Shown: positions 601 to 8,114 of the stretch, one piece after another
Numbering within the stretch: position 1 is the stretch's first letter
How the letters are laid out: every line of letters begins with the position of its first letter
Origin: a virus
Lineage: Duplodnaviria; Heunggongvirae; Uroviricota; Caudoviricetes
Length of the DNA stretch: 8,114 nt
Strand: one strand, 5' to 3'
Virus record (IMG/VR): IMGVR_UViG_2700989165_000007
Notes under the pieces: model-generated
The model's input: only the letters and a program-made list of their open reading frames with translations
Database searches by the model: none
What the model was told of the DNA's origin: nothing
Position numbers and translations under genes: made by a program

Positions 601-765
601 GATGGCATCCTCGAGTGATAAGTTAATTAACTCACCACCGAGGTTTTCCACGACCATAAGGGTGGTGAGACGTACAGGGGTGGAAATACCGGTCACTCGA
701 GAACCCGGCCAGTCTTGCGACTGCCCTGCACATCCCACCATAATTTGAATGGAGCTGTGCATTAC

Positions 766-796
766 GCATAAAAAAACCGCTTCAGCGCGGCTATGC
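766..796 (-). terminator. Candidate intrinsic-terminator-like hairpin followed by a T7 tract (minus-strand sense)
   Basis: Minus-strand sense reads CGCATA-GCCGCGCTGAAGCGG-TTTTTTT-ATGCG. Inner stem CCGC/GCGG (4 bp, extendable with A-U and G-U pairs), then seven T; outer arms CGCATA/TATGCG (766-771 and 792-797 on the plus strand) enclose it. The stem is short, so this is weak. Confidence 0.2.
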
Positions 797-1301
797 GCTC
801 GAGTAACGTTCGGGTTTCCACGCCCGGCCCCCGTTTTATGAGGTGCAGATGCACTATAATTCCACCCGTTCTGGTTTTCAATAGCTACATTCAACATTTT
901 CTCTTACCTTTCATCACCGAAGTGAACTTTGTTGATGCGGTGCCTGGTGCCTCCAGGTGACGTTAACCAGTTAACAATTAACGCCGGATACAGGGAAACC
1001 CATAACCACCCGATACGTGGGAACTAATCGCTTTTTAACTGTTCCGCGTGCGCTCAGCCGCATTCACCGCATCACAAAATTCACTTTAAAAAGGGCGGAC
1101 ATCAGCCAGCAATGAAACTGATGCCGCCAAAGGTACCAATCAACATGGAGTGTTGTGGCGTGGTTGTCACTTAAGCGTATGGTCAACCTGACAACCCGGT
1201 GTCCTCAACGGGGAAGGAATAACTCCGCCATACTTACCGCCGCGTCATTTCGCGTTGTGTGCCTGCTTTTAACTACGTCAGGCGAGGTGGTTCCTGTTAT
1301 T

Positions 1302-2037: not shown

Positions 2038-2561
2038 GTAAGCGCCCCATCAGCGACGTCTTGTGAAAATTGTCCTGTCTGGCAACAATCGCGCCCATCT
2101 ATATTGATGGACACGAACGATGAATTCCCAGACAACAAAAGATATTCCCTGCTTCCGTTCTTATTTGCCTGATGCCCTGCGTTTAAGATTTGAAGATAAA
2201 CTGACCATCCGGGCCATCGCTCAGCGTCTGGGTCTCAGTCATTCCACAATACATACGCTTTTTCAGCGATTTCTTGCATCCGGTATCGCATGGCCATTGC
2301 CCGATTCAGTTTCATTCGCTCAACTTGACGCCATCCTTTATGCCAACAGAAAGAAGGAATTAACAGAGCCTCAAATCAGAGAAGGCTCATGGCGAAAAGA
2401 ACGGCGAACCAGCTATAGCCGTGAATTTAAGGTCCGTCTGGCTAAGCAGGCATTACAGCCTGGGGCTGTTGTTGCCCGGATCGCCAGAGAACACGATATC
2501 AGGGATTTCAGTGCCCAGTACTCCCACCGGAACGTATATAGCATCCCCACAATTTTTCATT
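2038..2561 (+). mobile_element. IS element left end, IS66-family-like, with orfA; body of the element unresolved in the N-run
   Basis: Sequence from 2038 begins GTAAGCGCCCC; a terminal GTAAGCG is characteristic of IS66-family inverted repeats. An HTH transposase-accessory ORF starts 82 nt downstream. Family assignment is tentative and from memory. Confidence 0.35.
2120..2561 (+). CDS. IS transposase accessory protein (OrfA/TnpA-like, helix-turn-helix), partial; 3' end lost in the N-run
   Basis: Translation has two HTH-like segments: LTIRAIAQRLGLSHSTIHTLFQRF, and RRTSYSREFKVRLAKQALQPGAVVARIAREHDI. The second resembles the IS3/IS66 OrfA transposase_8 motif. The ORF runs without a stop into the Ns at 2562. 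Confidence 0.45.
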
Positions 2562-2904
2562 NNNNNNNNNNNNNNNNNNNNNNNNNNNNNNNNNNNNNNN
2601 NNNNNNNNNNNNNNNNNNNNNNNNNNNNNNNNNNNNNNNNNNNNNNNNNNNNNNNNNNNNNNNNNNNNNNNNNNNNNNNNNNNNNNNNNNNNNNNNNNNN
2701 NNNNNNNNNNNNNNNNNNNNNNNNNNNNNNNNNNNNNNNNNNNNNNNNNNNNNNNNNNNNNNNNNNNNNNNNNNNNNNNNNNNNNNNNNNNNNNNNNNNN
2801 NNNNNNNNNNNNNNNNNNNNNNNNNNNNNNNNNNNNNNNNNNNNNNNNNNNNNNNNNNNNNNNNNNNNNNNNNNNNNNNNNNNNNNNNNNNNNNNNNNNN
2901 NNNN
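2562..2904. other. Run of 343 N (unresolved or masked sequence); a second 10-N run at 2960-2969
   Basis: Directly visible. The X-filled ORFs in the track across this interval are artefacts. Confidence 0.99.
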
Positions 2905-2905
2905 C

Positions 2906-3089
2906 TCACTGGGCCGCCTGTCCCCGGTAGTCATGCTGGCAAAATCTGTCACAGCACAANNNNNNNNNNGCAGAACAGGAGGCGAAGCTGTTCACGTTTG
3001 AATGGAACGGTCGTATCTGGAATGCTGGTCCCGATTCACTGGGCCGCCTGTCCCCGGTAGTCATGCTGGCAAAATCTGTCACAGCACAA
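2906..3089. repeat. 54-bp exact direct repeat (2906-2959 and 3036-3089) flanking the 10-N gap
   Basis: TCACTGGGCCGCCTGTCCCCGGTAGTCATGCTGGCAAAATCTGTCACAGCACAA occurs twice, 130 bp apart. The first copy sits as an island between the two N runs. Confidence 0.9.
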
Positions 3090-4342: not shown

Positions 4343-5196
4343 GAGCGATCCTCCAGCGCTTTATGCGCACGCCGACGATTTGCCAAAAGTCCATGGGTGG
4401 GCGCAAATACAAATGCTAAAAGAAACAGCAGTGTCTGCGCCACCACGATGATTCCACCTGTCGCGCCGTCCAGAAAGTAACTGACCCACGCGCCGAGGAA
4501 ACTGGTTACACTGCCAATAGTTACAGCAATTATGAGCAGGCGGGGAAAACGATCGGTTAACAACCATGCTGTTGCACCGGGAGTCACCACCAGACAGATC
4601 ACCAGAAACGCACCAACCGTTTGCAGCGCCGCAACGGTCGAAACCGACAGCAGGGTGAAGAAGAGGATTTTTAATCTGCCCGGATGTAATCCAATAGCAC
4701 GGGCGTGATTCTCGTCGAAAAAGGTCACCATAAGATCTTTCCATTTGAAAAAAAGCACGATGATCGAGAGAATGCCAATGATAGTGAGTTGCAGGATATC
4801 CGCCGGATCGATTGCCAGAATATTGCCCAGGACGATGGTCTGAATGTTCACGGATGTCGGGTTCAATGACACCATAAACAGCCCCAGGCCAAAAAAGGAC
4901 GAGAAGATCAGGCCGATGATGGCATCTTCTTTTAAGCGGGTGCGTTGGTTAAGAAACAGCATGCTGCCCGCTGCCAGTCCGCCGGAAAAGAAGGCTCCCA
5001 GAGAAAACGGAAGCCCCAGCATATATGCCCCCGCAACACCCGGGACAATAGAGTGCGACAGCGCATCGCCAATCAGCGACCAGCCTTTTAGCATCAGATA
5101 GCATGACAGGAAAGCGCAGAGACCGCCGACCATTGCCGAGACCCACATCGCATTGAGCATATATTCATAGCTGAAGGGTTCCAGTAGCACGTTCAT
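4339..5196 (-). CDS. sitC: Mn/Fe ABC transporter permease SitC (ABC-3 family membrane protein)
   Basis: 285 aa hydrophobic protein, paralogous in pattern to the downstream permease. ATGA overlap with the sitB stop (5193-5196). Confidence 0.85.
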
Positions 5197-6020
5197 CTTG
5201 CTTCCCTCTGCACCGCTGACGGTCGATGTGCCACAAAAGGGCGTTCATCGTCAGTAATAATGCTTTCTTCCGAGCCGTTAAGTGTGACATGGCGCAGTAC
5301 GCCGCTAAAAGCCAGCTCCAGGTTCTCGGCTGTAAAAGTGGTGTCTGTCGGCCCGCTTGCCAGGACGGTGCCTTTGACCATGACCGTATAATCGCAAAAT
5401 GTCGTGACTGAGCCGAGATTGTGCGTTGAGACAAGCATCGTTTTGCCTTCCGCGCGTAACTCCCTCAACAGGCTGATGATTTTCGCTTCGGTTTTCACAT
5501 CAACGCCGGTAAAAGGTTCATCCAGCAGGATCACATCACCCTGCTGTGCAATTGCTCTCGCCAGAAAGACGCGTTTCTTTTGTCCACCGGAAAGCTCGCC
5601 GATTTGACGATGGCGAAAATCCACCATATCGACACGTTCCAGCGCATCGGTGACAATCTGACGATCCCTCTTTTTGGCTATACGCAACATACCCATATGC
5701 CCATAGCGGCCCATCATCACCACATCTTCCACCAGTACAGGAAATGACCAGTCAACCTCTTCTGACTGAGGGACGTAGGCAACCAGGTTTTTCTGTAGCG
5801 CCTGTCGCGTGGGAATACCCAGAACAGATATCTTTCCGCTGGTCAGACGCACAAATCCCATAATCGCTTTAAACAACGTCGATTTTCCGGAACCGTTTAC
5901 CCCAACCAGAGCGGCAATAGATCCACTTGGTACTGTGAAGGATGCATCGCGCAGTGCTGTGTGCCCGTTACGCCAGGTGACAGTAACATCATTAACGACA
6001 ATGCCTGCAGATTGCATCAT
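5193..6020 (-). CDS. sitB: Mn/Fe ABC transporter ATP-binding protein SitB
   Basis: 275 aa with Walker A (GVNGSGKST), ABC signature (LSGGQKKR) and Walker B ([11 protein letters not shown]). GGGAGAA ribosome-binding site inside the 3' end of sitA. Start overlaps the sitA stop by 1 nt. Confidence 0.9.
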
Positions 6021-6934
6021 TATTTCTCCCTTTTCCCGGCTTTAATTCCCTGTACCAGCGTACTGGTAGTAACCTTAAGAAGGTCGATATACGTAGGTAC
6101 CGGGCCGTTTTCTGTGCTCAGGGAATCGACATAGAGCACACCGCCGTAGTGTGCGCCGGTTTCACGCGCAACCTGACGCGCTGGTTTATCGGAAATCGTA
6201 CTCTCGCTAAAGACTGCCGGGATATGATTTTTCTTAACTATATCAACAACCTTACGTACCTGCTGCGGTGTTCCTTGTTGATCGGCATTAATCGGCCACA
6301 GATAAAGCTCTTTTAGCCCCAAATCGCGTGCGAGATAAGAAAAAGCCCCTTCACTGGTGACCATCCATCGCTGATTCTCAGGGAGTTCCGTAATCTGCTT
6401 ACGCAGGGGGGCAAGGGTTTGGGTAATCTTGGCTTTATAAGTATCGGCATTACGTTGGTAGGTTTGTGCATTTGCCGGATCGTATTTTATCAACGCATCA
6501 CGAATATTATCGACGTAAATCAGAGCATTATCTGGCGACATCCATGCATGGGGATTAGGTTTGCCCTCATAGGGTCCTTCGGTGATCCCTACTGGCGTCA
6601 CACCCGAAGAGACAATTACTTCTGGAACCCCATTGAGATGCTGGTAAAAGCGTTGGAACCACAATTCCAGATTCATACCATTGGCGAGAATCAGTTGTGC
6701 CCCCTGCGCACGTTTAATATCGCCAGGGGTAGGCTGATACTCATGAATTTCTGCACCAGGCTTGGTTATGGATGAGACTTCTGCAGCATCTCCAGCCACG
6801 TTTTTGGCCATATCCGCGATGATGGTAAATGTTGTAATGACCTTGAATTTTTCAGTTGCACTTGCCTGAAATGCGATCGAGCAGGTGAGGGCGAGGCACC
6901 CCAAGAGCATGGTTACTTTTTTTATTGAGTGCAT
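6020..6934 (-). CDS. sitA: Periplasmic Mn/Fe-binding protein SitA (TroA-like cluster A-I substrate-binding protein)
   Basis: 304 aa with an N-terminal signal peptide ([26 protein letters not shown]). Gene order and sizes (304/275/285/285) fit SitABCD. The symbol is assigned from recognition, not a search. Confidence 0.85.
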
Positions 6935-6966
6935 AATTTAGTACCTATAGTGAGCAAAATTAGAAC

Positions 6967-6988
6967 AAACATAGCAACGGCTATGTTT
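6967..6988 (-). promoter_or_regulatory. MntR box: perfect palindrome AAACATAGC-AACG-GCTATGTTT in the sitA promoter region
   Basis: 9-bp arms are exact reverse complements with a 4-bp spacer, 33 bp upstream of the sitA start codon. Matches the MntR operator as I recall it from mntH. Confidence 0.6.
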
Positions 6989-7010
6989 TATAGCATAACC
7001 TATACAAAAT

Positions 7011-7029
7011 GAAAATAATTATCATTAAC
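7011..7029 (-). promoter_or_regulatory. Fur-box-like site GAAAATAATTATCATTAAC
   Basis: 15 of 19 positions match the Fur consensus GATAATGATAATCATTATC by eye. It lies upstream of the MntR box in the sitA promoter region. Confidence 0.5.
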
Positions 7030-7143
7030 AGCTTTGAGGCCTAAAACAGGGATTAGGTTGTTTCCTGCTGGCGACATGATATTGAGGAAAAAAGTAGAGC
7101 AGCTATTAGGCTTTGAAATGACTTTATGAGGAAAATTGTTGAT

Positions 7144-7215
7144 GGCAAAAATGGGGCAAAACGCTGTATAAGGGGCAAAAAAGGGGCAAAAAAGGGGCAA
7201 AAAAGGGGCAAAAAA
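7144..7215 (+). repeat. GGGGCAAAAAA tandem array: four perfect 11-bp units (7172-7215) plus degenerate copies at 7144-7151 and 7153-7161
   Basis: Directly visible. The A6 tracts recur every 11 bp, in phase with the helical repeat. Confidence 0.9.
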
Positions 7216-7220
7216 GAGTG

Positions 7221-7428
7221 GGTTATCGTAGCTTATTGTTGTCGCTGATAATGTTTAACATATTGAAAAATAAATAAAATACTTATGAGTCAGATAGTTG
7301 TGATTTTTGCCCTTACTTGTTCAGGTCGTATTGTTCTTTCTTTGTAATTTGTTGATTTTCTTGCATTATTTCAGTTCTCTGGTACTAAATGGGGCAAATT
7401 GGGGGCAAACTTTGCAACTACGATAACC
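7221..7428. repeat. 11-bp inverted repeat pair GGTTATCGTAG (7221-7231) and CTACGATAACC (7418-7428)
   Basis: Exact reverse complements. Each arm lies just 3' of a GGGGCAAA cluster. The right arm contains the integrase stop codon (7418-7420). Confidence 0.85.
7391..7409 (+). repeat. Two further GGGGCAAA copies (7391-7398 and 7401-7409); an inverted copy TTTTTGCCC sits at 7305-7313
   Basis: Same motif as the tandem array, about 180 bp away, just upstream of the integrase stop codon. Confidence 0.85.
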
Positions 7429-8057
7429 GCGCATTCAACATGGCTATCTGTTCGTCGTTCATGTCATCAATCCACATACCGTAAATTTCATACACCATTT
7501 GCGCAGTTTCATGCCCCATCTGGCTGGCTATAAATGCCGGGTTCGCTCCTGCCGTCAACAGCCAGCAGGCAAAAGTATGTCGCGTGTGGTACGGATTACG
7601 GCGGCGAATACCAGCACGTTTTACTGCTGCATTCCATCTTGTACCCAAACTGCTTACCGAGTAATAAGGTTTCTGTTTTTCGTTACACACCCTGGGCATG
7701 AAAACAAAATGCAGTTTTTGTTTTTCAGTTCTGCCGTACTCCCGATGATAAAAAGTGATTTCGCTTTTGCGATGATGCCCGGTCAGTTTGTATTGCTCCT
7801 TCAGTGCTTCAAGAGCCGGCTGCAGTAATGTTACCGTCCGGATCCCGGCATTTGTTTTTGGGGGACCGAACATATCAAGTATCGTCAGGTTTCTTCTGAC
7901 ATTCACAATTCCCTTCTCGAAATCCACATCCTCCCACGCCAGAGCTGCCAGTTCCCCGTGACGAAGCCCGGAGTAAACGGCAAATTTCCACAAGTTTTGG
8001 CTCTGTCCTTTTTCACTTTCCATTAATGCATTGAATTCTGTTTTAGATAACGGGTCA
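7418..8057 (-). pseudogene. Tyrosine recombinase (phage integrase) C-terminal catalytic domain; N-terminal part removed by the IS1 insertion
   Basis: Translation carries integrase catalytic-domain motifs (SGLRHGELAALAWEDVD; HTRHTFACWLL; VYEIYGMW). Only about 213 native codons remain. The apparent TTG start at 8069-8071 is inside IS1 sequence, and an in-frame stop lies at 8081-8083. Confidence 0.7.
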
Positions 8058-8114
8058 GGTAATGCTGCCAACTTACTGATTTAGTGTATGATGGTGATTT
8101 TAAGGTGCTTGCGT
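8058..8114 (+). mobile_element. IS1 terminal fragment (inverted-repeat end; element continues beyond the window end)
   Basis: GGTAATGCTGCCAACTTACTGATTTAGTGTATGATGGTG matches the IS1 terminal inverted repeat and adjacent sequence as I recall it, with isoform-level differences. Confidence 0.7.

What the first reader, a model, noticed from the sequence alone, without database searches (positions are those of the whole stretch)
7141..7430. Phased GGGGCAAAAAA array with bracketing inverted repeats between the integrase 3' end and the sitA promoter
About eight copies of GGGGCAAA(A) sit in roughly 270 bp: four perfect 11-bp tandem units (7172-7215), degenerate copies at 7144-7161, two more at 7391-7409 and one inverted at 7305-7313. 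Each cluster is followed by one arm of an exact 11-bp inverted repeat (GGTTATCGTAG at 7221 / CTACGATAACC at 7418). The A6 tracts recur every 11 bp, which is the classic arrangement for intrinsically bent DNA. In lambdoid prophages the attachment site with integrase arm-type sites lies just downstream of the int 3' end, so this could be an att-site remnant. Iterons, a binding array for a regulator, or an H-NS nucleation element are alternatives. I do not recognise the motif as a known site.
Basis: partly seen in the sequence, partly recalled or inferred. Interest (0 to 1): 0.7.

Follow-up and report, generated by a model that had tools for sequence, protein, structure and literature searches.

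The report
Rac-type phage attachment site (attP)
The repeat array is a complete attachment site of a Rac-family prophage that targets the ttcA gene, and its GGGGCA repeats are most likely the integrase's arm-binding sites, so it is an ordinary kind of element with one instructive detail.

Summary
Seven exact GGGGCAAA copies lie in 7153-7409 and none elsewhere in the window. There is a perfect 4 x 11-bp array and an exact 11-bp inverted repeat.

The region 7141-7430 is a contiguous P arm, core and P' arm, i.e. an attP-type junction of a Rac-family lambdoid phage. The core (7317-7342) is the 26-bp identity shared by Rac attL, attR and the empty ttcA site. The minus strand 7366-7313 encodes a 17-codon mimic of the TtcA N-terminus.

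The junction sits between a sitABCD-carrying prophage end and a second Rac-type integrase cut by IS1. This looks like a tandem-prophage relic.

GGGGCA-N5-GGGGCA, with an 11-bp period, lies at the integrase 3' end in 50 of 73 IntR relatives (31-99% identity, many genera). It also does so in 60 of 60 streptococcal-type phage integrase loci, often with a second pair about 215 bp away. So the repeats are almost certainly arm-type integrase sites. Binding itself was not tested.

The four-unit array is a strain-specific expansion; relatives carry 0, 2 or 3 units. The predicted bend is real, but the A-tracts are not conserved across the family.

Verdict: a new member of a known kind, of moderate interest.

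The parts
7141..7430 (.). Whole attP-type junction (P arm, core, P' arm) of a Rac-family, ttcA-targeting lambdoid phage
   Evidence: 7317-7430 matches Rac attL (the ttcA|intR junction) at about 98% identity. 7175/7190-7359 matches Rac attR beside uspF at 88-94%. Homology to K-12 Rac attR begins at the first degenerate repeat unit, about 7141.
7141..7161 (+). Distal P-arm pair of repeat units (GATGGCAAAAA, then TGGGGCAAAA), 11-bp register; candidate arm-type Int sites
   Evidence: Conserved in K-12 Rac, Rac-SA53, SPF_0923, E. coli H22 and EC2.
7172..7215 (+). Proximal P-arm array: four perfect GGGGCAAAAAA units. The commonest form among the sequences read has two, so two units here are a strain-specific expansion
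   Evidence: TRF result. Unit numbers elsewhere are 0, 2 and 3. Strongest predicted curvature of the window.
7221..7231 (+). Left arm of the 11-bp inverted repeat (GGTTATCGTAG), 8 nt after the last P-arm unit; function unknown
   Evidence: I4. The K-12 equivalent is GGATTATCGTAG, so it is only partly conserved.
7256..7285 (.). Two one-mismatch matches to the IHF consensus in the P arm (7256-7268 on the minus strand, 7273-7285 on the plus strand)
   Evidence: These are consensus matches only.
7304..7313 (-). Inverted, degenerate repeat unit (AGGGCAAAAA on the minus strand), 4 bp from the core
   Evidence: I8-I11. Conserved in K-12 attR.
7317..7342 (.). Core: the 26-bp identity block TTGTTCAGGT(C/T)GTATTGTTCTTTCTT shared by attL, attR, attB and this junction (25 of 26 here)
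   Evidence: Annotated as attB in phage Rac-SA53. A reconstructed empty site is intact in 2489 of 5426 E. coli genomes.
7313..7366 (-). Phage-borne mimic of the ttcA 5' end: MQENQQITKKEQYDLNK followed by a stop. After integration it replaces the native TtcA N-terminus
   Evidence: Translation. attL in E. coli MBT-5 continues in frame into annotated ttcA. Literature: PMC4632033, PMC6379469.
7345..7357 (-). Perfect match to the IHF consensus WATCAANNNNTTR between the core and the P' repeats (same position as lambda H')
   Evidence: This is a consensus match only.
7391..7409 (+). P' arm tandem pair GGGGCAAAttgGGGGCAAA, 8 nt from the int stop codon; candidate arm-type Int sites
   Evidence: The same pair at the same place occurs in 50 of 73 IntR relatives and in 60 of 60 streptococcal-type integrase loci.
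7418..7428 (+). Right arm of the 11-bp inverted repeat; it equals the int codons Leu-Ser-stop and part of the Arg codon before them
7418..8059 (-). 3' part (residues about 198-411, catalytic domain) of a Rac-type IntR integrase. The N-terminal arm-binding and core-binding parts are missing from the window
   Evidence: 96% identical to intact intR over 7317-8059.
8060..8114 (.). End of an IS1 copy that splits the integrase gene
   Evidence: The nearest relatives (S. flexneri SFBU1023, E. coli ECMA0423) have a 766-bp insertion here. It encodes InsA and an IS1 DDE transposase.
6020..6934 (-). sitA, the first gene of the sitABCD cargo operon at the right end of the upstream prophage (context)

Best explanation
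Positions 7141-7430 are an intact attP-type recombination site of a Rac-family lambdoid phage whose integrase (IntR type) integrates the phage into the first codons of the host gene ttcA.

Parts of the site:
- The 26-bp core (7317-7342) is where strand exchange with ttcA takes place.
- The phage carries its own copy of the ttcA start (7366-7313, minus strand), so the gene stays intact after insertion.
- The GGGGCA(AA) repeats are the arm-type sites. There is a tandem pair in the P' arm next to the int stop codon. The P arm carries two pairs, the proximal one expanded here to four units. One inverted copy lies beside the core.

How it most likely works (inferred):
- The N-terminal arm-binding domain of IntR (Pfam PF12167) binds the repeats while the C-terminal domains hold the core.
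- The 11-bp spacing puts neighbouring Int molecules on one face of the helix.
- The phased A-tracts pre-bend the P arm, and IHF-like and XisR sites between arms and core help to fold the intasome, as in phage lambda.

Why an attP is in a chromosome or island: two Rac-type prophages once lay in tandem. The left one carried sitABCD as cargo at its right end. Only the right prophage's int survives in the window, split by IS1.

Shown here: the homologies, the core, the empty site, the domain content of the integrase family, the positional conservation of the motif, and the copy-number variation.

Inferred: protein binding, the functional role of the bend (the bend itself is a model prediction), and the tandem-lysogen history.
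For: Identity of the site:
- BLAST splits the region exactly into a Rac attR-like left part and a Rac attL-like right part, overlapping at the core.
- K-12 attR and an attL with annotated ttcA, intR and xisR share the 26-bp core that is present at 7317-7342.
- That core is annotated as attB in phage Rac-SA53.
- A reconstructed empty site is intact in 2489 of 5426 E. coli genomes.
- The ttcA mimic is encoded on the minus strand.
- Literature: Rac sits in ttcA and IntR plus XisR excise it (PMC4632033).
- A metagenomic viral contig (L019) carries a full-length IntR next to the same contiguous attP.

Context:
- E. coli H22 and APEC O1 show a full Rac-type prophage, then the attP junction, then an int fragment, other fragments, and uspF.

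Arm-site assignment:
- IntR has an arm-DNA-binding domain, PF12167 (E = 3.8e-26), plus a catalytic domain.
- GGGGCA-N5-GGGGCA lies on the strand opposite int within -170 to +90 of the int stop in 50 of 73 relatives. These are 31-99% identical and come from Enterobacterales, Vibrio, Pseudomonas, Halomonas, Thiobacillus and others. Nine more have it farther downstream on the same strand. Background is 11 hits in 829 kb.
- The flanks and the five spacer bases vary, while GGGGCA is nearly invariant.
- An 11-bp period cannot be imposed by codon structure.
- Independent replicate: integrase-selected streptococcal-type phage loci have the pair at -19 to -30 from the stop in 60 of 60 cases. Many have a second pair at -235 to -246. 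Background is 0 in 476 kb.
- Window geometry is alike: P' at -27/-16 and P at -246 to -213.
- The phiEf11 paper independently flags AAAGGGGCAAA repeats in both arms as potential integrase sites (PMC12540744).

Bend:
- The global curvature maximum of the window is at 7196.
Against: - No binding or recombination data exist for IntR arm sites. Nothing was found in the searchable literature.
- The integrase next to this copy is truncated by IS1, so the site is probably not used by its own element.
- The four-unit array is unique to this window. Relatives have 0, 2 or 3 units, so part of it is dispensable.
- Six P-arm units are more than lambda's two. Some could belong to the excisionase rather than to Int.
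- 14 of 73 IntR relatives show no tandem pair by my criterion.
- The arm-binding domains of the proteobacterial and streptococcal families show no detectable sequence similarity (hhalign probability 2.8%). The cross-phylum parallel is therefore analogy, not proven homology.
- The inverted repeat and the inverted unit beside the core remain unexplained.
Confidence: 0.85

Rival explanations
1. The tandem P-arm units are binding sites for the excisionase XisR (DUF1233) or another directionality or accessory factor, not for the integrase. Lambda Xis likewise binds direct repeats in the P arm.
For: - XisR is encoded next to intR.
- Lambda Xis sites are direct repeats confined to the P arm (established knowledge).
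- The P arm here has more units than expected for Int alone.
Against: - The same motif, as a pair, sits in the P' arm against the int stop codon throughout the family. Xis sites are not expected there.
- The motif tracks the integrase in streptococcal-type phages too; their excisionases were not examined here.
Confidence: 0.08
2. The array is a neutral simple-sequence repeat produced by replication slippage, with no function of its own.
For: - Unit number varies among close relatives: a collapsed form in S. flexneri SFBU1023, E. coli ECMA0423 and pAPEC-O2-ColV; 2 in K-12; 3 in E. coli EC2; 4 only here.
- The site lies in a decayed element.
Against: - This explains the extra units, not the motif.
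- GGGGCA pairs are positionally conserved at int 3' ends in 50 of 73 and 60 of 60 loci, against a background of about 0.003 per zone.
Confidence: 0.04
3. The array is a regulatory or nucleoid-protein (H-NS) nucleation element for the sitABCD promoter, acting through intrinsic curvature.
For: - It lies about 210-280 bp upstream of sitA.
- It is the most strongly curved DNA predicted in the window.
Against: - The array is present in Rac prophages without sit genes, such as K-12 and Rac-SA53.
- Most plasmid-borne sit loci share homology only up to about 7149 and lack the array.
- A-tracts are not conserved in IntR relatives.
- No promoter enrichment was found.
Confidence: 0.02
4. The repeats are iterons of a replication origin.
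For: They are direct repeats with helical phasing in AT-rich DNA.
Against: - No initiator gene is nearby. The flanks are sitA and int.
- The region maps base for base onto the attL and attR of a site-specific recombination system.
Confidence: 0.01

Closest known systems
Phage lambda attP (P1, P2, P'1-P'3 arm-type sites; H1, H2, H' IHF sites; Xis and Fis sites)
   Same: - About 240-290 bp in total, with a long P arm (about 176 bp here) and a short P' arm (about 75-90 bp).
- Tandem arm-type repeats in the P' arm about 60-80 bp from the core centre, next to the int 3' end.
- Further arm repeats 115-190 bp away on the other side.
- An IHF-consensus match between the core and the P' repeats.
   Different: - The integrase belongs to another subgroup (PF12167 arm-binding domain, IntBPP-1 type per PMC8138268).
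- The motif is GGGGCA rather than lambda's arm-type motif.
- The identity block is 26 bp and lies inside a coding region.
- The P arm carries 4-6 same-orientation units.
- Nothing has been shown biochemically.
Rac prophage attL and attR in E. coli K-12 (ttcA / ttcC, IntR, XisR)
   Same: - Same core and the same ttcA N-terminal replacement.
- Same P' arm (about 98% identical) and same P arm (about 94%).
- Excision by IntR plus XisR is documented (PMC4632033).
   Different: - Here the two arms are joined on one molecule (attP form) inside a chromosome or island.
- The cargo next to the P arm is sitABCD.
- The proximal array has four units instead of two.
- The int gene is split by IS1.
Enterococcus phage phiEf11 attP and streptococcal phage attP regions
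   Same: - Tandem (A)AAGGGGCAAA repeats in both arms.
- One pair abuts the int stop codon and one pair lies about 215 bp away.
- The repeats are proposed as integrase-binding sites (PMC12540744).
   Different: - The hosts are Gram-positive and the cores differ (ffs and others).
- The integrase N-terminal domain has no detectable similarity to PF12167.
Tandem (poly)lysogens of lambdoid phages
   Same: The order attL, prophage, attP, prophage, attR leaves an intact attP between two prophage copies. E. coli H22 and APEC O1 show a full prophage, the attP junction, an int fragment and then uspF.
   Different: The second copy is reduced to fragments. The history is inferred, not observed.
e14 and phage 21 integration into icd
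   Same: The phage carries a substitute end of the target gene, so the gene remains functional after insertion (PMC6379469).
   Different: Those phages replace the 3' end of icd. Rac-type phages replace the 5' end of ttcA, and therefore also its upstream region.

Membership tests
Rac-type (ttcA-targeting) prophage attachment site | Core identical to the 5' coding sequence of ttcA and shared by attL, attR and attB | tested here: met
   25 of 26 positions at 7317-7342. The reconstructed attB is intact in 2489 of 5426 genomes.
Rac-type (ttcA-targeting) prophage attachment site | P' arm contiguous with the 3' end of an IntR-type integrase gene, carrying a substitute ttcA start | tested here: met
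   7317-7430 is about 98% identical to ttcA|intR junctions. The mimic ORF is shown.
Rac-type (ttcA-targeting) prophage attachment site | P arm homologous to the prophage side of Rac attR | tested here: met
   88-94% identity to Rac-SA53 and K-12 attR.
Rac-type (ttcA-targeting) prophage attachment site | Int- and Xis-dependent recombination at this site | not testable with these tools
   Shown for K-12 Rac in PMC4632033, not for this copy. The adjacent int is truncated.
Heterobivalent tyrosine-integrase attP with arm-type sites (lambda paradigm) | Integrase with an N-terminal arm-binding domain in addition to core-binding and catalytic domains | tested here: met
   IntR has PF12167 at residues 5-69 (E = 3.8e-26) plus PF00589. 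The window's own copy retains only the catalytic part.
Heterobivalent tyrosine-integrase attP with arm-type sites (lambda paradigm) | A repeated motif, different from the core, on both arms | tested here: met
   Two units in the P' arm, six in the P arm, one inverted near the core.
Heterobivalent tyrosine-integrase attP with arm-type sites (lambda paradigm) | The motif follows the integrase family across different target sites | tested here: met
   50 of 73 IntR relatives, plus 9 with the pair farther downstream. 60 of 60 streptococcal-type loci.
Heterobivalent tyrosine-integrase attP with arm-type sites (lambda paradigm) | Physical binding of the Int N-domain to the repeats | not testable with these tools
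   No data were found in the literature searches.
Heterobivalent tyrosine-integrase attP with arm-type sites (lambda paradigm) | Accessory bending-protein sites (IHF, Xis) between the arms and the core | tested here: inconclusive
   One perfect and two one-mismatch IHF consensus matches. No Xis motif is known for DUF1233 excisionases.
Iteron-type replication origin | Direct repeats adjacent to a cognate initiator gene | tested here: not met
   The flanking genes are sitA and int. No rep gene was found.
Intrinsically bent A-tract element / H-NS nucleation site | A-tracts phased with the helical repeat | tested here: met
   Four A6 tracts at an 11-bp period; predicted curvature maximum of the window.
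Intrinsically bent A-tract element / H-NS nucleation site | Conservation of the A-tracts, rather than of another motif, in related loci | tested here: not met
   Across relatives GGGGCA is invariant while the following five positions vary.
Phase-variable simple-sequence repeat | Copy number varies between strains | tested here: met
   0, 2, 3 and 4 proximal units.
Phase-variable simple-sequence repeat | The repeat lies in a coding region or in the promoter spacer of a switched gene | tested here: not met
   It lies about 240 bp upstream of sitA, outside the conserved sit upstream region. No promoter hexamers flank it.

The most novel reading that the evidence does not exclude
GGGGCA-N5-GGGGCA may be a shared arm-site 'code' with a common attP geometry: one pair against the int stop codon and a second pair about 200-216 bp away in the same orientation.

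It appears to be used by two integrase groups whose arm-binding domains show no detectable sequence similarity. One is the PF12167 (IntBPP-1 type) group of Proteobacteria. The other is the MWxEEL-type integrases of streptococcal, enterococcal and lactococcal phages.

This would mean either very deep conservation of a protein-DNA recognition mode across phyla or convergence on it. It would also give a simple sequence rule for finding the true ends of thousands of prophages.
Probability: 0.45. Interest if true: 0.55.

Novelty: new member of a known kind. Interest (0 to 1): 0.35.

Why it matters
For this window:
- The finding settles where the mobile elements begin and end. The sit iron/manganese transporter is cargo at the right end of a Rac-type prophage.
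- The junction with the next integrase is a phage attachment site, not a regulatory region of sitA.

More generally:
- The analysis gives a testable arm-site consensus (GGGGCA at an 11-bp period) for a large, biochemically uncharacterised integrase subgroup that includes Rac IntR.
- The same motif and geometry recur in Gram-positive phages.
- This could improve prophage boundary calling. At least one published att annotation appears to have taken these arm repeats for the att site itself (L. lactis phiKW2, PMC3757294).
- It would also guide the design of minimal attP substrates for these integrases.

Tried and rejected
- Profile-profile comparison of the IntR-family and streptococcal-type N-terminal domains gave no homology (probability 2.8%).
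- Sequence searches of both N-domain profiles against PDB chains gave only chance-level hits.
- Pfam on the streptococcal-type N-terminus gave no arm-domain family.
- Rfam on the whole window found nothing in 6935-7430, so there is no known RNA element here.
- The promoter and terminator scan of 6900-7500 gave counts no higher than shuffles, and found no promoter in the P' arm upstream of the ttcA mimic.
- A second viral-contig scan with distant IntR relatives was meant to find P arms of diverged family members. It returned only integrated (attL) forms, so two-arm architecture is shown only for Rac-type and streptococcal-type phages.
- Literature searches for IntR arm sites, and for GGGGCA together with 'arm-type', found nothing specific. 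The only related statements are in the phiEf11 paper and the phiKW2 table.
- I considered structure prediction of IntR to check the arm-binding fold. I did not run it, because the Pfam match and PMC8138268 already cover that point.
- I could not locate the 7-bp overlap region or core-type inverted repeats inside the 26-bp core by inspection.
Full report
**1. The observation**

Reading 6800-7700 and searching the motif confirm the description.
- Exact GGGGCAAA occurs seven times, all on the + strand, at 7153, 7172, 7183, 7194, 7205, 7391 and 7402.
- It occurs nowhere else in the 8114 bases. One inverted copy with a single mismatch lies at 7306-7313.
- Tandem Repeats Finder reports 7170-7216 as 4.3 perfect copies of an 11-bp unit.
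- The repeat finder shows a further degenerate pair in register at 7141-7161.
- It also shows the exact 11-bp inverted repeat at 7221-7231 / 7418-7428.

On the minus strand, sitDCBA runs from 6934 down to 3485 (sitA start at 6934). An integrase fragment ends with its stop codon at 7418-7420.

**2. What the region is**

BLAST against phage records and 5426 complete E. coli genomes splits the region into two parts.
- 7317-7430 matches, at about 98% identity, the junction annotated ttcA | intR. This is the left end (attL) of Rac-type prophages.
- 7175/7190-7359 matches the right end (attR) of Rac-type prophages next to uspF. In phage Rac-SA53 a 26-bp 'attB' is annotated there.

I read K-12 attR (BW25113) and an attL with annotated dbpA, ttcA, intR and xisR.
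- The two share exactly TTGTTCAGGTTGTATTGTTCTTTCTT.
- The window has this block at 7317-7342 with one mismatch.
- Left of it, the window follows the prophage side of attR. Right of it, the window follows the prophage side of attL.
- So the window holds P arm, core and P' arm on one molecule, which is the attP form.

I built an empty site from the bacterial sides of attL and attR. It is present in one piece in 2489 of 5426 E. coli genomes, which confirms the boundaries.

The minus strand 7366-7313 reads MQENQQITKKEQYDLNK-stop. This is a copy of the TtcA N-terminus that the phage brings with it. It agrees with published work:
- Rac lies in the 5' end of ttcA.
- Excision by IntR plus XisR changes four N-terminal residues (PMC4632033; also PMC6379469).

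A metagenomic viral contig (L019) has a full-length, 100% identical IntR next to the same contiguous attP. The junction is therefore the vegetative phage arrangement.

**3. Why an attP sits here**

In E. coli H22 and APEC O1 the same junction lies between two elements.
- On one side is a complete Rac-type prophage. Its last cargo genes are sitABCD in H22 and cdtABC plus others in APEC O1.
- On the other side are the decayed remains of a second prophage: a 231-bp int 3' fragment, a DUF1627 fragment and a sitD fragment, followed by uspF.

This is the pattern left by tandem lysogeny followed by deletions. The history is inferred, not observed.

The window's closest relatives are S. flexneri SFBU1023 and E. 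coli ECMA0423 (100% and 99.6% over 4869-7161 and 7196-8114). In them the int gene is split by a 766-bp IS1. The window ends inside that IS1, so only residues about 198-411 of the integrase remain.

**4. What the repeats are**

IntR carries an N-terminal arm-DNA-binding domain (PF12167, residues 5-69, E = 3.8e-26) and a tyrosine-recombinase catalytic domain. A published classification places PF12167 integrases in the IntBPP-1 subgroup, next to IntTn916 (PMC8138268).

First test. If the repeats are arm-type sites, they should travel with this integrase family whatever the target site.
- I collected relatives and fetched 80 loci from one genome per species.
- In 50 of 73 usable loci, a pair GGGGCA-N5-GGGGCA (at most one mismatch in 12) lies within -170 to +90 of the int stop codon. 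It is always on the strand opposite int.
- These loci are 31-99% identical to IntR. They come from Enterobacterales, Vibrio, Pseudomonas, Halomonas, Thiobacillus and others.
- Nine more have the pair farther downstream on the same strand.
- Elsewhere in these loci there are 11 hits in 829 kb, or about 0.003 per zone of that size.
- GGGGCA is nearly invariant. The five bases between the units, and the flanks, vary.
- In many distant relatives the pair overlaps the last codons of int. An 11-bp period cannot be a by-product of codon structure.

Second test.
- The exact 20-mer GGGGCAAAAAAGGGGCAAAA was found in more than 120 viral contigs. 118 of the 120 read are not Rac.
- These are low-GC phages. 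Among the roughly 34 loci with enough downstream DNA, about 26 have a tyrosine integrase whose stop lies 0-4 bp or about 203-238 bp from the pair. I tallied the 26 of 34 by eye from the listing.
- Copies lie at about -235/-224 and -20/-9 from the stop.
- That set was chosen by motif, so I repeated the test choosing by integrase.
- 60 of 60 loci with at least 25 nt downstream have the pair at -19 to -30.
- Many with enough sequence have a second pair at -235 to -246.
- There are no hits in the remaining 476 kb.
- Named relatives include S. pneumoniae phage IPP27 and S. pyogenes phage 315.3.

The window has the same layout: P' at -27/-16 and P at -246 to -213.

A 2025 paper on Enterococcus phage phiEf11 independently points to AAAGGGGCAAA direct repeats in both arms as potential integrase sites (PMC12540744).

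Taken together, arm-type integrase sites are by far the best reading. No binding experiment exists for IntR as far as I could find.

**5. The array length and the bend**

Among close relatives the number of proximal units differs.
- Collapsed form (0 units): S. flexneri SFBU1023, E. coli ECMA0423, pAPEC-O2-ColV and two viral contigs.
- Two units: K-12, SPF_0923, H22 and others.
- Three units: E. coli EC2, in an apparently normal attR.
- Four units: only this window.

The four perfect units are therefore an expansion of a two-unit site. Steps of 11 bp keep the helical phase roughly constant, which may be why such changes are tolerated.

A wedge-model calculation puts the largest curvature of the window at 7196. 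It gives about 137 degrees of deflection over 7140-7240, and about 102 degrees with two units, against 34 +/- 17 for shuffles. The parameters were recalled from memory.

The A-tracts are not conserved in the wider family. The bend is therefore an accessory feature of Rac-type P arms at most.

**6. Other features**

- A perfect IHF consensus lies at 7345-7357 (minus strand), between the core and the P' repeats. Two one-mismatch matches lie in the P arm. These are consensus matches only.
- The 11-bp inverted repeat is only partly conserved. K-12 has GGATTATCGTAG in attR, and the E. coli MBT-5 attL has CTATGATAACC.
- The right arm of the inverted repeat is the end of the int reading frame. I cannot assign it a role.
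- Rfam finds no RNA family in the region.

**7. Rivals**

- Excisionase sites: possible for some P-arm units, but they do not explain the P' pair across the family.
- Neutral slippage: explains the extra units only.
- A sitA regulatory or H-NS element: unlikely. Rac prophages without sit have the array. Most plasmid sit loci share homology only to about 7149.
- Iterons: there is no initiator gene.

**8. Comparison and novelty**

The element works like lambda attP and is a member of the Rac att family by every sequence criterion tested. The Rac core and the ttcA effect were already known. The arm sites of IntR were not described in the literature I could search.

Two observations appear to be new: the family-wide GGGGCA pair rule, and its recurrence in Gram-positive phages whose arm-binding domains show no detectable similarity to PF12167. 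Both concern a well-understood kind of element.

I rate it a new member of a known kind, with interest 0.35.

Noticed in passing
window 6967-6988 and about 7010-7030: A perfect 9-bp palindrome, AAACATAGC-N4-GCTATGTTT, lies 33-54 bp upstream of the sitA start (I6, 65). From my own knowledge it looks like an MntR operator. An AATAATTATCATTAAC stretch nearby looks like a Fur box. Together these would be the real sitA control region, well separated from the repeat array.
   Followed up: no
window 6935-7131: The 197 bp upstream of sitA are 91-93% identical to a segment of phage 21 and many lambda-like phages at about 25 kb on their maps. The first 137 bp are 96% identical in others. So part of the 'sit promoter region' is generic lambdoid DNA near the attP end of the genome.
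   Followed up: no
L377 (pAPEC-O2-ColV, NC_007675.1) 6001-6309: This ColV plasmid carries sitABCD together with the same attP junction (collapsed repeat form, 99.4% identical) and the start of the int fragment. This suggests its sit locus was captured from a tandem Rac-type prophage. Most other plasmid sit loci share homology only up to about window 7149.
   Followed up: partly
window 658-846 (minus strand), within ORF 265-897: Rfam finds a C4 antisense RNA (76.7 bits) and an isrK Hfq-binding RNA (59.6 bits). They overlap an ORF with Rha and Ash phage-regulator domains, which looks like a P1/P7-type immunity module in the left part of the window.
   Followed up: no
window 2562-2904 and 2960-2969; 2120-3001: The window contains two runs of N (masked sequence) inside an IS-like region whose ORF has transposase HTH domains. 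The left 3.3 kb matches many places per E. coli genome.
   Followed up: no
window 7367-7417 (P' arm, minus strand): In lysogens the 51 bp between the int stop and the substitute ttcA start codon must supply ttcA expression. No sigma-70-like promoter was found there. This suggests ttcA is read through from int or uses an unconventional promoter overlapping the arm sites.
   Followed up: no
L258, L260, L262-L264, L267, L270, L273, L277 (Pseudomonas and relatives): In these distant IntR relatives the GGGGCA pair lies 0.8-2.3 kb downstream of int, on the usual strand, instead of at the stop codon. Genes may therefore sit between int and the attachment site.
   Followed up: no
literature: L. lactis prophage phiKW2 (PMC3757294, Table 2): The published 'attR' of this prophage is aaaggggcaaaaaaggggcata, i.e. 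the arm-type repeat pair itself. The flanking repeats were probably taken for the att core.
   Followed up: partly
L227-L229, L378 (Atlantibacter, Pseudescherichia and a viral contig): A few IntR relatives lack the GGGGCA pair downstream of int. They share instead CTACTATACCCCCCTA(C/T)AGTA. This may be a different arm or core element.
   Followed up: no
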